DNA of 64,000 nucleotides from an uncultured Thermoplasmatales archaeon (GTDB taxonomy: Archaea > Thermoplasmatota > SW-10-69-26): positions 76,014-140,013 of the forward strand of contig CAYNEI010000001.1 in NCBI GenBank assembly GCA_964396185.1, written 5' to 3'. Shown piece after piece: positions 33,891 through 41,016 of this stretch. Within the stretch, counting starts at the first letter, position 1. Every line of letters begins with the position of its first letter. Both the position numbers and the translations under genes were made by a program. Under the pieces are notes generated by a model. That model was given only the letters and a program-made list of their open reading frames with translations. It did not search any database and was not told the DNA's origin.

Positions 33891-34936
33891 GGGCGTGCCT
33901 CCTCGAGATCCTCATCCTCGAGCTCCGTGAGGTCCAGCAGCGGTTGGTCTGCCGCATCGGGGGCGCGCCAGGGTGCATCCAAGCCGTCGTCGTGGTCGGC
34001 CCAGTCCTCGCTGTCGCGGCCTCGGCGCGCCGCGATCCCCATGATGGCCAGCAGGCCCACGACCCCCCAGGGGAGGATGTCTAAGCTGGCGGGGAGGTGA
34101 AGGGTGCGGAAGAGCGTGAGGCCCACCTCGGCAGGGCCGAGCACGTGGCGGGATTCGTCTACGATGATCTGGGCGCGCTGGCCCGTGCTTTGCTGGGCTG
34201 CGATGGCTTCCACGAGCTGTGGGGCCCCGGCGCGGTTGCTGTAGGCGTTCGTTGCGAACGTTGCGTCCGCCACGAAGATCAGCCGGCCGGTGCCGGCGCG
34301 GTGCTCGATGGCCACAGTGCAGGCGGGCGTGCACGTGGGGTCAGAGGCGTCGATGCGGTCGTTGTCGTCGGCATCCCAGGCGGCCAGTTGGCTCGTCTCG
34401 CCGGCGGTGGTCACCTCAGAGCCCTCGGTGTCGAGTGCTACGGGCTCCCAGAGGTTCACGAAGGTGCCCGCGATGTCCACACGCACCACGCTGGGGTTGA
34501 CCTCGTCCCCGCTCTGGGTGCCGTTCTCGGATTGTGTGGCGAACACGGTGCCAAGCGTGCGCACGCCGAGGCGGTCGAGCAGGCTCTTGCTGGCGCCTGT
34601 GTCGTCGAGCACGATGGCGGTGCCGCCGCGTTCGACGTAGTCGAAGAGCGTGTCGAGCTCGGACTCGGTGTAACCGCGGTCCACGCCGACAGCCAGGTAG
34701 ACCGGGTCGGCCTGGTCGGTGTCGACGTTCTCGAGCGCGCTGGGACCGATGAGCAGGCTGGAGACGTCGAAGCCCTGGGCGCGCAGGGCGTTGACGAGCA
34801 GGCTGGCGTCGTCGTCGTCGCTCCCGTAGGCCGAAAGCGGTGCGTCCAGGAGCTGGAGCGATGGCAGCACGAGCAGGAGCGCGATGATGGCAGCGAGGCC
34901 AGCCCCGCCGCCGACGAGCGCGCGTTGCCGGTTCAT
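33887..34936 (-). CDS. DUF4350-like membrane protein (349 aa)
   Basis: An N-terminal TM helix is followed by LSAYGSDDDDASLLVNALRAQGFDVSSL..PVYLAVGVDRGYTESELDTLFDYVERGGTAIVLDD. This matches the DUF4350 layout (..Y....G..al...L...G..v... ...l...P....t..E...l..fv..GG.lvl). A second TM lies near the C-terminus. ATGA overlaps occur at both ends. Confidence 0.6.
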   Translation of the reverse strand: MNRQRALVGGGAGLAAIIALLLVLPSLQLLDAPLSAYGSDDDDASLLVNALRAQGFDVSSLLIGPSALENVDTDQADPVYLAVGVDRGYTESELDTLFDYVERGGTAIVLDDTGASKSLLDRLGVRTLGTVFATQSENGTQSGDEVNPSVVRVDIAGTFVNLWEPVALDTEGSEVTTAGETSQLAAWDADDNDRIDASDPTCTPACTVAIEHRAGTGRLIFVADATFATNAYSNRAGAPQLVEAIAAQQSTGQRAQIIVDESRHVLGPAEVGLTLFRTLHLPASLDILPWGVVGLLAIMGIAARRGRDSEDWADHDDGLDAPWRAPDAADQPLLDLTELEDEDLEEARP

Positions 34937-40900: not shown

Positions 40901-41016
40901 GTGCCTGCGAGCAGCACGGCGCCCGTGATGAGCAGAGCTCCGAGCAGCACGAGCGTGGTGACCATGACGAGGCGCTCGCCCCGGGTGAGCACTTTCCAGT
41001 ACCTTTCGAGACCCAT
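34933..41016 (-). CDS. Giant two-TM surface protein (2027 aa): thrombospondin type-3-like Ca-binding repeats, Ig-like repeats, C-terminal TM helix and DUF4129-like cytoplasmic tail
   Basis: The N-terminal TM is VMVTTLVLLGALLITGAVLLAG. About twenty D.D.DG...D..E units follow (DTDGDGLSDDHE, DTDGDGLQDGWE, DSDNDGLTDLEE, DADGDGIPDAWE and others), then at least 7 beta-sandwich repeats of about 90 aa (..VTIQFSY.., ..TDLDGRATVSLDVP.., ..TDGEGSASLTLEVPED.., ..TDDQGRAVIQF..). TM LTWVILTAAVLLIAVDAWILH (residue 1891 on) precedes ..AIYRAYLRMRAIAEVLGEPEQETDTVREFG..LIELFERAWYNQ. GGAGG lies 9 nt upstream of the ATG, which abuts the upstream TAG. Confidence 0.85.
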   Translation of the reverse strand: MGLERYWKVLTRGERLVMVTTLVLLGALLITGAVLLAGTPFSEAQRTPSGGQVADTDGDGLSDDHEDLRFGTNPQSADTDGDEMPDGWEAENSRVNPLTSLISPDPTRADASADPDRDGLPHMAEFTNGTDPWDPDTDGDGLQDGWEIDSGHDPLDASSATLDLDGDGLLAEDEHELGTLDNQVDSDDDGLTDVEELDGQATIAGQRYTFEATDPARTSTGGSGLPDGFAVVFDLDPHDANVGRQDMDGDGLSSALEAQYSIDRAGSARDALSGGLDPTQRDTDGDGLPDGWEVTHDLDPLDPADGAGDPDQDGLGNGDELFWGTDPLNADTDGDGLPDGDEVNGWAIQLNGREIRVSSNPLLVDSDNDGLTDLEEFEGTTEQEGETLTFPRTHPLLPDSDGDRLQDGFEIRTDFLGMRLNATAADSDGDGLKDAEELEYWENRQVEAESTFPEHLEAPAPAECTDEASAAIQARDPALFGPAGDPDGDCLPNILDPDSDRNGNETLPVSVQSNLLLDGEEIDPKEEQGELRELTPSDPAIADTDGDGLPDEWELANPFTGFDASGRPVWLLDPRNADSDGDGVPDGDDDYEGKFDQVEGLQACWSRVLPDGDPNEDAVGDSRPWANRAYTNADEMTANTDPFRCDTDRDGLIDGWEAANRQHASIDPLTPLSEPWAGTYVQTVCYPGTNSDAQLPVESDLVANDVEDIVSILESMDDAPATGEQASQPEANNVWLVRTGGCNWNEATQMAEPGTRCPFCSIAGITFNLYWAQAAQSDPGVNPSTAGPVDSDGDGAGDAWEALWLAIGQNTTDTRNLVDPGSDQGDPDTDELDMGDEFRLGASPLVRDTDGDGEIDGSDQDPLSPETNAVRIRDADGDHLLDGACDGGVFTPGNDADRLATARQRAILEPSTGTFLCEPSADPNGETTDADGDGIPDAWEMLHSYRESPSNPNLAVFSASADFEADGVRDSAEYALGMPSTWPSDQVWWFGSDPRTASGLDADGDGLSEALGLDPDPYAHLPSQPTPANAWDLACNELGITCPPATPLEWTGQAGQSAFNVELNQAGKAADPSDIVWKGDAILLDIEVTHNGDPASNVPVAIVAMTSSESSRLVNDGELSLLSDQARVACILITDSQGRIQTTGCDLDSTSTSTNLAGTGRTWFGSAQPNWDRSLTPLNPLASSQAAPENNPAIVAWAMGDGEDVGAVDRRQVFVKANTTIELDTPPSAGSAGESVEFTGTVLDAATDPVTQGSLEVQGPEGTETYRLGDQGTFTAPVALPDVDRATPVTIQFSYTAPAGERGKLISSELAHDLNVLPVPGLEFIDKPASLTAGERVKITVEATDTQGNGIQGPLQVSLAGHTVNRTTDLDGRATVSLDVPRDIQPGPKDLVAQFLGTNDFGPATEASEITVRQRLLVDISNPELILGRPSTFTINVEDLGGATPDEDLDVTIRLGGLADATTMEGRSGVTGISLPVSGAIGPATVEVSVFGSQRYEPTNTTAPVTIHSETILSAQPTRVPRGTPTELDLTLVDAMDRPVPEARVALQAPGFQTTAEIAQGQARLPIELPADQPAGPLTVTYETAGPGILSSKGNLNLIVQAASNLTAQATVEPAAGVVNMEMSLVDDQGEPIPNQPIEVNWPLGEARTVRTDGEGSASLTLEVPEDTQPGEHAIQARFDGTREHTPAEAFVTVQIRSPTQIETSGELVWVRGQSLSIQGRVTSHDTGQPVNLPIQVLANDEVLATTRARGSFDVNIPSDAIASLATSSQRFALTVATPGDDAWAPSETTVLVAPLVPVELSVGIERGGQGVTLTLEASTPDGPLQNAVVAVASLDGPAITKETDDQGRAVIQFQGEPSQLVARYRGDASHAPAEATVNLAETAAQPPGGLTWVILTAAVLLIAVDAWILHRVIQRLRVGRQIEEVLEDLERQLMLGDELQAAIYRAYLRMRAIAEVLGEPEQETDTVREFGHRFVDSLDLDDEAVMGLIELFERAWYNQVTPDMRGQAITELQRIQTHLRDRGLVA

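What the first reader, a model, noticed from the sequence alone, without database searches (positions are those of the whole stretch)
34933..41016. DUF4129-like cytoplasmic tail fused to about 1850 extracellular residues of TSP3 and Ig-like repeats (inferred two-TM, both-ends-in topology)
Seen in sequence:
- One hydrophobic helix at residues about 17-38 and another at about 1891-1911.
- Between them, about twenty D.D.DG..D..E calcium-binding repeats, roughly nt 38100-40850.
- At least seven beta-sandwich repeats of about 90 aa, roughly nt 35450-37600.
- After the second helix, a 116-aa helical tail resembling DUF4129.

Established knowledge: DUF4129 normally sits at the C-terminus of much smaller membrane or transglutaminase-like proteins in MoxR/DUF58 loci.

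Inference: this fusion physically links the cytoplasmic side of the DUF58/DUF4350 module to a giant Ca-dependent extracellular stalk. That makes this protein the likely hub of the system.
Basis: partly seen in the sequence, partly recalled or inferred. Interest (0 to 1): 0.65.

Follow-up and report, generated by a model that had tools for sequence, protein, structure and literature searches.

The report
Giant archaeal membrane protein with DUF4129 tail
This gene encodes a 2,027-residue membrane protein with a huge repeat-built outer part and a small inner DUF4129 tail; it belongs to a conserved but unstudied family in uncultured archaea and sits in a poorly understood surface-assembly gene cluster, so it is a real but only moderately surprising variant of a known kind.

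Summary
ORF 34933-41016 (-) encodes 2,027 aa with only two hydrophobic helices (about residues 16-38 and 1891-1911). Between them lie 11 strict to about 24 degenerate TSP3 motifs (residues 55-1012) and seven Ig-like repeats (1232-1878). A 116-aa helical tail follows.

The tail is a real DUF4129 domain. Alone it scores 26.2 bits against a Pfam cut-off of 24.8, and all 22 ortholog tails tested hit PF13559.

The architecture is not a one-off fusion. About 30 protein clusters from uncultured archaea (the named ones mostly Thermoplasmatota MAGs) share it.

Gene order is conserved: giant CARDB protein, about 1,300-aa CARDB protein, this protein, DUF4350, (MoxR), DUF58. [quoted passage not shown] 2015. 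MoxR is absent from this window and from 5 of 9 related loci.

Sister clades carry a transglutaminase-like core in the ectodomain, which ties the family to TgpA-like proteins. The window's clade has none.

Two gene fusions elsewhere support physical association of the neighbours: CARDB protein with the giant, and DUF4350 with DUF58.

The "hub" role is untested inference. Best reading: the DUF4129 membrane subunit of this module, with its outer loop expanded into a surface stalk. Interest is moderate.

The parts
34933..41016 (-). Gene for the 2,027-aa giant DUF4129-tailed membrane protein (stop codon 34933-34935)
   Evidence: ORF list and translation. GC3 0.90. Full-length orthologs at 41-46% identity.
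40972..41016 (-). N-terminal 15-residue basic peptide (MGLERYWKVLTRGER), predicted cytoplasmic
   Evidence: 4 K/R. R5, W7, L10, T11, G13, E14 and R15 are invariant in 8 orthologs.
40903..40971 (-). TM1 (residues about 16-38), predicted uncleaved signal anchor
   Evidence: KD peak 2.46. Present in the full-length orthologs. It is an internal TM in the fused 3,274-aa relatives.
37981..40854 (-). TSP3-type (DxDxDGxxDxxE) repeat region with Cys/Trp-containing inserts, residues 55-1012
   Evidence: PF18884 E=5e-22. 11 strict, 16 relaxed and 24 core motifs.
37324..37980 (-). Residues 1013-1231, uncharacterised conserved-Cys region between the TSP3 and Ig repeats
   Evidence: No Pfam hit at E<=10 apart from TSP3. 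The AlphaFold2 model was low-confidence, pLDDT 41.
35383..37323 (-). Seven Ig-like beta-sandwich repeats, residues 1232-1878
   Evidence: Big_3_5 7.6e-19, MG4 and Big_1. Iterated HMM finds 7 domains.
35284..35346 (-). TM2 (residues about 1891-1911)
   Evidence: KD peak 2.2. A helix continuous with the tail in the AlphaFold2 model. Conserved in orthologs.
34936..35283 (-). 116-aa predicted cytoplasmic helical tail; the DUF4129 match covers residues 1947-2009 (nt 34990-35178)
   Evidence: PF13559 at 26.2 bits against a cut-off of 24.8 on the isolated tail; 22 of 22 orthologs hit. Invariant E1939, A1942, T1967 and Y1998. Mean pLDDT 80.
33887..34936 (-). DUF4350 (arCOG01314-type) membrane protein, 349 aa; its start overlaps the giant's stop (ATGA)
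   Evidence: PF14258 E=1.1e-12. N- and C-terminal hydrophobic helices. Junction sequence.
32670..33890 (-). DUF58 (vWA-like) protein, 406 aa, with an N-terminal hydrophobic hairpin
   Evidence: PF01882 E=5.8e-10. Alignment with 8 relatives. Close homologs at 51-56% identity.
29182..32643 (-). 1,153-aa protein with about 5 N-terminal TM helices, Ig-like domains and a C-terminal TM
   Evidence: Big_13 and other Ig-like hits. TM scan. An ortholog is in the same position in L002.
41017..44997 (-). 1,326-aa CARDB surface protein (signal peptide plus C-terminal TM anchor); its stop abuts the giant's ATG
   Evidence: CARDB E=8.5e-8. Termini. Junction. Fused to the giant in P0011-13.
44994..57302 (-). 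4,102-aa CARDB surface protein (signal peptide plus C-terminal TM anchor)
   Evidence: CARDB E=1.8e-39. Termini. Syntenic giants in L001, L002 and L085.
57290..63853 (-). 2,187-aa protein with a C-terminal TM anchor, first gene of the tightly packed gene string
   Evidence: Weak fn3 hit. C-terminal TM.

Best explanation
The gene encodes the DUF4129-family membrane subunit of an archaeal DUF4350/DUF58 envelope module. [quoted passage not shown]

In this lineage the segment between the two membrane helices has grown into an extracytoplasmic stalk of about 1,850 residues, built of TSP3-type repeats and seven Ig-like domains.

The polypeptide enters the membrane with an uncleaved N-terminal anchor and re-crosses it near the C-terminus. 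It ends in a small helical DUF4129 domain of about four helices in the cytoplasm.

It is co-translated with two to three other giant, C-terminally anchored CARDB/Ig surface proteins and with DUF4350 and DUF58. Together they most likely build or hold a cell-surface structure, either an adhesive or a coat-like layer.

On the outside the DUF4129 giant would sit with the flavodoxin-like DUF4350 ectodomain. On the inside its tail would sit with the DUF58 vWA-like domain and, where present, the MoxR ATPase.

Shown here: domain content, hydropathy and charge topology, family conservation, synteny and gene fusions.

Inferred: calcium binding, surface exposure, complex formation, and the adhesion or scaffold function.
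For: - Domains and helices.
- DUF4129 identity of the tail: (26.2 bits against a 24.8 cut-off; 22 of 22 orthologs). Conserved E/A/T/Y positions. Helical model with pLDDT 80.
- Same N-TM, 1,850-2,000-aa ectodomain, TM, 113-135-aa tail layout in about 30 clusters.
- Conserved order (giant CARDB, about 1,300-aa CARDB, DUF4129 giant, DUF4350, (MoxR), DUF58) in loci as distant as 28% identity: L001, L002 and L085. The giant, DUF4350, (MoxR), DUF58 part also holds in L003, L004, L007, L016, L024 and L035.
- Start/stop overlaps or zero spacing at both ends of the gene.
- Rosetta-stone fusions. The CARDB-1326 homolog plus the giant form one 3,274-aa protein in three clusters. DUF4350::DUF58 is one 737-aa ORF in L003.
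- Small 4-TM DUF4129 relatives, one of them next to MoxR and DUF58.
- Transglutaminase-bearing giant relatives followed by DUF4350 and DUF58.
- TSP3-containing genes in related marine archaea have been read as adhesion factors: PMC6461757.
Against: - No experiment exists on any member, and only two papers in the library mention DUF4129 at all.
- The tail has no structural neighbour of known function. Foldseek's best E is 0.26, to generic helical bundles, and there is no PDB relative by sequence.
- MoxR is missing from this operon and from 5 of 9 related loci, so an ATP-driven step is not obligatory or is supplied in trans.
- Makarova et al. modelled the vWA protein as secreted. If that is right, the tail would not meet DUF58.
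- Canonical TSP3 motifs are largely lost in orthologs P0005, P0006 and P0008, which weakens 'Ca-dependent stalk' as a family-wide property.
- The Poseidoniales relative L055 has the giant DUF4129 protein without DUF4350 or DUF58 nearby, so the linkage is not universal.
Confidence: 0.6

Rival explanations
1. Cargo rather than core. The DUF4350/DUF58(/MoxR) proteins would be a dedicated secretion or assembly machine. The giant proteins, including this one, would be its substrates. The DUF4129 tail would then be a recognition or retention handle rather than a structural hub.
For: Makarova et al. favour a novel secretion system and list Ig-like and S-layer-like proteins as associated components. 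The operon carries three other giant surface proteins.
Against: Small DUF4129 proteins with almost no ectodomain (4 TM helices plus the tail) also accompany MoxR and DUF58. That fits a core membrane subunit better than a cargo. The other giants lack the tail and have plain C-terminal anchors.
Confidence: 0.2
2. Stand-alone adhesin. The protein would simply be a membrane-anchored, repeat-built adhesin. The tail would be an inert anchor, and the neighbourhood with DUF4350 and DUF58 would have no functional meaning.
For: The ectodomain consists only of TSP3 and Ig-like repeats typical of adhesins. L055 carries a related giant with no DUF4350 or DUF58 nearby.
Against: The tail has invariant residues across sequences that are 22-30% identical. 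Synteny with DUF4350 and DUF58 is conserved in 10 of 11 family loci examined. Coding sequences overlap. Gene fusions link the neighbours.
Confidence: 0.1
3. Transmembrane sensor. The stalk would bind an external ligand or surface, and the DUF4129 tail would relay this to the cytoplasmic vWA-like DUF58 (and MoxR), in the manner of an integrin.
For: It has a large Ca-type repeat ectodomain, a single-pass C-terminal TM and a short conserved helical tail next to a vWA-type protein.
Against: No output domain (kinase, cyclase or DNA-binding) occurs in the operon. No precedent exists for signalling by DUF4129.
Confidence: 0.07
4. Type I topology. TM1 would be a cleaved signal peptide, so the mature protein is anchored only by TM2.
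For: The N-terminus has the n-region/h-region look of a Sec signal. Neighbouring giants do have signal peptides.
Against: The hydrophobic stretch is about 23 residues long. The 15 residues before it are conserved in orthologs. In the fused relatives the same helix is internal. No signal-peptide predictor was available.
Confidence: 0.1

Closest known systems
DUF4129 (Pfam PF13559) membrane proteins of MoxR-DUF58 loci: small bacterial forms with 4 TM helices plus the tail
   Same: The C-terminal helical domain follows directly after a TM helix, with the same conserved positions. The proteins neighbour DUF58.
   Different: The small forms are 280-300 aa with almost no extracytoplasmic part. Here about 1,850 residues of TSP3 and Ig repeats lie between two TM helices, and the operon has DUF4350 but no MoxR.
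TgpA of Pseudomonas aeruginosa (PA2873) and other transglutaminase-like plus DUF4129 proteins
   Same: Both are membrane proteins with an extracytoplasmic domain. TgpA is co-transcribed with two upstream genes, PA2875 and PA2874 (PMC3507681), which from my own knowledge are MoxR-like and DUF58-like. Giant relatives of the window protein (L016, L024, L055) carry a Transglut_core in the ectodomain and end in DUF4129. PA2875 is dispensable while tgpA is essential, which parallels the MoxR-less archaeal operons.
   Different: The window protein and its close orthologs have no transglutaminase core. hmmscan of the central region finds nothing at E<=10, and hhalign gives a probability of 0.08%. That TgpA itself ends in DUF4129 is from my memory and was not tested here.
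[quoted passage not shown]
   Same: It combines a membrane-anchored DUF4350 protein, a vWA/DUF58-type protein, and several membrane or secreted Ig-like proteins in one operon.
   Different: The paper does not name DUF4129, and its table marks arCOG01314 as absent from Thermoplasmata. It lists MoxR as a regular component, whereas MoxR is missing here. Giant proteins of 2,000-4,000 aa are not part of the published scheme.
Myxococcus TSP3-repeat surface proteins CglD and MtsD (NCBIfam NF033765, NF047639)
   Same: They share TSP3-type repeats in a cell-surface protein tied to adhesion or cohesion.
   Different: The scores of 117.6 and 43.4 bits are far below the family cut-offs of 400 and 800. The similarity is in the repeats only. 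It is not a member.

Membership tests
DUF4129 (PF13559) | Match to the Pfam HMM at or above the gathering score | tested here: met
   The isolated 150-aa C-terminus scores 26.2 bits against a cut-off of 24.8, E=8.7e-6. All 22 of 22 ortholog tails hit, best 1.3e-16. On the full-length protein the score is 24.1 bits, just under the cut-off.
DUF4129 (PF13559) | C-terminal position directly after a transmembrane helix | tested here: met
   TM2 is at 1891-1911 and the tail at 1912-2027. The same layout is seen in small and giant relatives.
TgpA-like transglutaminase/DUF4129 membrane proteins | Transglutaminase-like core (PF01841) in the extracytoplasmic part | tested here: not met
   No PF01841 hit in the whole protein at E<=1 or in residues 596-1231 at E<=10. 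hhalign of a TGase profile against the ortholog alignment gives a probability of 0.08%. The core is present in relatives L016, L024 and L055.
TgpA-like transglutaminase/DUF4129 membrane proteins | Operon with DUF58 and a MoxR ATPase | tested here: inconclusive
   DUF58 is two genes downstream. There is no MoxR anywhere in the 64-kb window. The rest of the 291-kb contig could not be read.
arCOG01314-associated predicted secretion/membrane-remodeling system (PMC5898192) | DUF4350 protein with an N-terminal signal or anchor and a C-terminal TM | tested here: met
   PF14258 E=1.1e-12. Hydrophobic segments at 6-24 and 281-299.
arCOG01314-associated predicted secretion/membrane-remodeling system (PMC5898192) | vWA-type (DUF58) protein in the same operon | tested here: met
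   PF01882 E=5.8e-10. The gene overlaps the DUF4350 gene by 4 nt.
arCOG01314-associated predicted secretion/membrane-remodeling system (PMC5898192) | MoxR/COG0714 AAA+ ATPase in the operon | tested here: not met
   tblastn with the L001 MoxR finds nothing in the window. MoxR is present in L001, L004, L007 and L035. It is absent in L002, L003, L016, L024 and L085.
arCOG01314-associated predicted secretion/membrane-remodeling system (PMC5898192) | Additional membrane or secreted proteins with Ig-like domains | tested here: met
   CARDB and Ig-like giants lie upstream, and a 1,153-aa multi-TM Ig protein lies downstream.
Bacterial TSP3 repeat proteins (PF18884) | Repeated DxDxDGxxDxxE motifs matching the HMM | tested here: met
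   E=5e-22 in 8 stretches. 11 strict and about 24 core motifs.
Bacterial TSP3 repeat proteins (PF18884) | Calcium binding by the repeats | not testable with these tools
   This is inferred from the motif only. Three close orthologs have lost most canonical motifs.
CglD / MtsD (NCBIfam equivalogs) | Score at or above the equivalog cut-off | tested here: not met
   117.6 bits against a cut-off of 400, and 43.4 against 800.

The most novel reading that the evidence does not exclude
The roughly 35-kb gene string 29182-63853 would encode a previously undescribed giant cell-surface apparatus of uncultured archaea, with about 10,800 aa in five very large membrane-anchored proteins. A MoxR-independent three-part transmembrane module (DUF4129 giant, DUF4350, DUF58) would assemble or hold it. 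The DUF4129 protein would be the element that couples the outer stalk to a cytoplasmic vWA-like partner, an integrin-like inside/outside link built from unrelated parts.
Probability: 0.15. Interest if true: 0.65.

Novelty: new variant of a known kind. Interest (0 to 1): 0.38.

Why it matters
DUF4129, DUF4350 and DUF58 are widespread domains with no established function. The one studied DUF4129-context protein, TgpA, is essential in Pseudomonas aeruginosa.

This family shows the DUF4129 subunit in an extreme form. It has a huge surface-exposed part, tight translational coupling to DUF4350 and DUF58, natural gene fusions with its neighbours, and frequent absence of MoxR.

That points to a role of the whole module in building or anchoring surface structures, and it suggests that the ATPase is accessory. 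It also names specific partners to test.

For uncultured Thermoplasmatota-type archaea, these operons probably specify a major part of the cell surface and therefore of particle or cell attachment. The practical value is a set of testable predictions, not a new principle.

Tried and rejected
1. Hidden transglutaminase domain in the window protein: rejected.
2. Structure-based function for the tail. Foldseek against PDB gave only generic helical bundles (HEPN, four-helix designs, GPCR fragments), best E=0.26. A profile search of PDB sequences gave nothing meaningful.
3. AlphaFold2 of residues 596-1240 with 8 orthologs gave pLDDT 41. The model is unusable, so no fold search was run.
5. A profile search of the 5.8-billion-protein set with the tail alignment returned only 2 hits, because the word prefilter was swamped.
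The scan with the full-length alignment used TSP3 patterns and returned mostly unrelated TSP3 proteins. By HMM and tblastn only 8 of the 80 loci were family members.
7. Looking for a MIDAS-motif difference between DUF58 proteins of MoxR-containing and MoxR-less operons. All have D-x-R-x-x-[S/T], so there is no difference.
8. Naming the organism failed. There is no tRNA, rRNA or other Rfam hit in the window. Cluster look-up gave no names. Close DUF58 homologs are all unnamed. Assignment to Thermoplasmatota-type archaea rests only on the nearest named homologs. A salt-in halophile is unlikely, because cytoplasmic-type proteins in the window are not acidic.
9. Walking upstream beyond the window through the 2,187-aa protein failed because the sequence is not on record.
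10. Known C-terminal sorting-signal families in the neighbouring giants: none found.
11. The bacterial promoter and terminator scan was uninformative.
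Full report
**What is in the sequence**

The minus-strand ORF 34933-41016 encodes 2,027 aa. Codon-position GC (GC3 0.90) marks it as the coding strand. The 1,397-aa ORF on the opposite strand shows the mirror pattern and is a high-GC shadow.

Hydropathy gives only two membrane-type segments, at about 16-38 and 1891-1911. 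The protein is very acidic: 367 D+E against 112 K+R, with K only 0.6%.

Pfam finds TSP3_bac (5e-22), Big_3_5 (7.6e-19), MG4, Big_1 and, at the C-terminus, DUF4129. Motif counting gives 11 strict, 16 relaxed and 24 core TSP3-type motifs between residues 55 and 1012. An iterated HMM finds seven Ig-like repeats between 1232 and 1878.

**The tail**

On the full protein the DUF4129 hit is marginal, at 24.1 bits against a cut-off of 24.8. The isolated C-terminus scores 26.2 bits. All 22 ortholog tails tested match PF13559, the best at 1.3e-16.

Sequences only 19-30% identical to the window's tail keep E1939, A1942, T1967 and Y1998, within a GDE..A / T.REF / FE.A.Y pattern.

AlphaFold2 with this alignment gives mean pLDDT 80. 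The TM helix runs on into a long helix, followed by four more helices. No solved structure resembles it significantly by fold (best E=0.26) or by sequence.

**Topology**

Several lines point to both ends being cytoplasmic:
- There are four K/R before TM1 and five K/R in the 24 residues after TM2.
- The orthologs have basic N-terminal segments of 15-35 residues.
- The first 15 residues are conserved among the eight close orthologs.
- In three 3,274-3,298-aa relatives the upstream CARDB protein and this protein are one polypeptide. TM1 is then an internal helix right after the CARDB protein's C-terminal anchor.

All of this argues that TM1 is retained. No dedicated topology or signal-peptide predictor was available, so this remains a prediction.

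**Conservation**

The protein has full-length orthologs at 41-46% identity (P0002-P0008). It has more distant full-length relatives at 27-29%. These include proteins that NCBI names 'DUF4129 domain-containing protein', from Euryarchaeota, Candidatus Thermoplasmatota and 'Halobacteriales' MAGs.

About 30 clusters share the layout of N-terminal TM, 1,850-2,000-aa ectodomain, TM and a 113-135-aa tail. The architecture is a family trait, not a private fusion.

A single-sequence search of 1.84 billion representatives with the tail found 61 relatives. Many are 280-300-aa proteins with four TM helices and the tail. Others form a range of intermediate and giant sizes.

**Gene neighbourhood**

In the window the genes from 63853 down to 29182 are packed head to tail. 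Most neighbours overlap by 4-13 nt or abut exactly; the one gap, before the 1,153-aa gene, is 26 nt. The genes in order are:
- a 2,187-aa protein
- a 4,102-aa CARDB protein
- a 1,326-aa CARDB protein
- the DUF4129 giant
- DUF4350
- DUF58
- a 1,153-aa multi-TM Ig protein

The three upstream giants end in a TM helix plus a short basic tail, and two of them start with signal peptides.

The order of giant CARDB protein, about 1,300-aa CARDB protein, DUF4129 giant, DUF4350, (MoxR), DUF58 recurs in L001, L002 and L085. The giant, DUF4350, (MoxR), DUF58 part also holds in L003, L004, L007, L016, L024 and L035.

MoxR lies between DUF4350 and DUF58 in four loci. It is absent in the window and in five others, and no MoxR is detectable anywhere in the 64-kb window.

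In L003, DUF4350 and DUF58 are a single 737-aa ORF.

A small 4-TM DUF4129 protein from a metagenome sits next to MoxR and DUF58. One Poseidoniales relative (L055) has no DUF4350 or DUF58 nearby.

**Link to transglutaminase proteins**

Giant relatives in L016 and L024 (2,539 aa) and in L055 (2,979 aa) contain a Transglut_core domain in the ectodomain and end in DUF4129. In L016 and L024 the catalytic Cys position is Ala or Ser, while L055 keeps Cys.

The window's clade has no such domain by hmmscan or by profile-profile comparison.

This places the family beside TgpA-type proteins. In P. aeruginosa, tgpA is co-transcribed with PA2875 and PA2874, has a periplasmic transglutaminase domain and is essential, while PA2875 can be disrupted (PMC3507681). 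That PA2875 and PA2874 are MoxR-like and DUF58-like, and that TgpA ends in DUF4129, is from my own knowledge and was not tested here.

**Relation to the literature**

Makarova, Galperin and Koonin (2015) described arCOG01314 (DUF4350). It is a GldG-like, flavodoxin-fold ectodomain with a signal peptide and a C-terminal TM. [quoted passage not shown]

DUF4129 is not named in that paper, and the full-text library holds only two papers that mention DUF4129 at all. Rinke et al. (2018) read thrombospondin-type genes of Marine Group II archaea as adhesion factors.

**Interpretation**

The best-supported reading is that this is the DUF4129 membrane subunit of that module, with its outer segment expanded into a TSP3/Ig stalk. 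It would act together with the co-operonic giant surface proteins in a surface structure.

The DUF58 proteins start with a hydrophobic stretch of about 38 residues broken by a conserved polar or Gly position. That fits a helical hairpin, which would put the vWA-like domain in the cytoplasm on the same side as the tail and MoxR. This is my inference and differs from the secreted placement in the 2015 model.

Calcium binding, surface exposure, complex formation and the 'hub' role are all inferred. Loss of canonical TSP3 motifs in three close orthologs cautions against treating calcium dependence as essential.

**Verdict**

The protein is a new variant of a known kind: the DUF4129 component of MoxR/DUF58-type loci, here giant, without a transglutaminase core, and in a MoxR-less operon.

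Orthologs are already in public databases under automatic DUF4129 names, and the module has been described computationally. The surprise for a specialist is therefore moderate. The main value lies in the testable partner predictions and in the hint that MoxR is accessory.

Noticed in passing
window 2082-16504 (+): Five tandem paralogous genes encode 809-842-aa proteins with N-terminal signal-like sequences. They are 32-70% identical to each other and have no Pfam hit.
   Followed up: partly
window 32670-34936 (-), with L002, L003, L016, L024 and L085 against L001, L004, L007 and L035: There are two operon variants. In one, MoxR lies between DUF4350 and DUF58. In the other, which includes the window, DUF4350 and DUF58 overlap directly and no MoxR is seen. 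The DUF58 proteins of both variants share the same D-x-R-x-x-[S/T] motif in place of a canonical DxSxS MIDAS.
   Followed up: partly
L003 16420-18633 (+): A single 737-aa ORF fuses a DUF4350 domain, a TM helix and a complete DUF58 protein. Its start overlaps the stop of the giant DUF4129 gene.
   Followed up: yes
P0011, P0012, P0013 (3,274-3,298 aa): Three independent clusters fuse a homolog of the upstream 1,326-aa CARDB protein to the DUF4129 giant, with two internal TM helices at the junction.
   Followed up: yes
L016 9878-17497, L024 8633-16252, L055 9872-18811: Giant DUF4129 relatives carry a transglutaminase-like core. In L016 and L024 the catalytic Cys position is Ala or Ser and the Asp position is Glu, so the domain is probably inactive. 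L055 keeps the Cys.
   Followed up: partly
P0005, P0006, P0008 (closest orthologs): These orthologs keep the overall length and alignment but have only 0-4 strict TSP3 motifs, against 11 in the window protein. The calcium-type motifs are decaying in part of the clade.
   Followed up: no
window 34960-39153 (+): A 1,397-aa ORF lies antisense to the giant gene. Its GC is highest at codon position 1 (0.90), the mirror of the real gene's GC3. It is a high-GC shadow ORF and not a gene.
   Followed up: yes
window 57290-63853 (-): The 2,187-aa first gene of the string has a C-terminal TM anchor but no signal peptide at the listed GTG start. Its true start or its export route is unclear. The exact product was not on record in the contig index.
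   Followed up: no
window 16714-19779: A 567-aa PKD-domain protein (-) is divergently placed next to a 448-aa protein with an IrrE/Peptidase_M78 domain (+). These lie between the paralog array and the giant-protein region.
   Followed up: no
window 29182-32643 (-): The 1,153-aa protein downstream of DUF58 has about five N-terminal TM helices, Ig-like domains, a near-threshold DNRLRE-domain hit (33.9 bits against 34) and a C-terminal TM. It may correspond to the '5-TM membrane protein' components listed for the arCOG01314 system.
   Followed up: no
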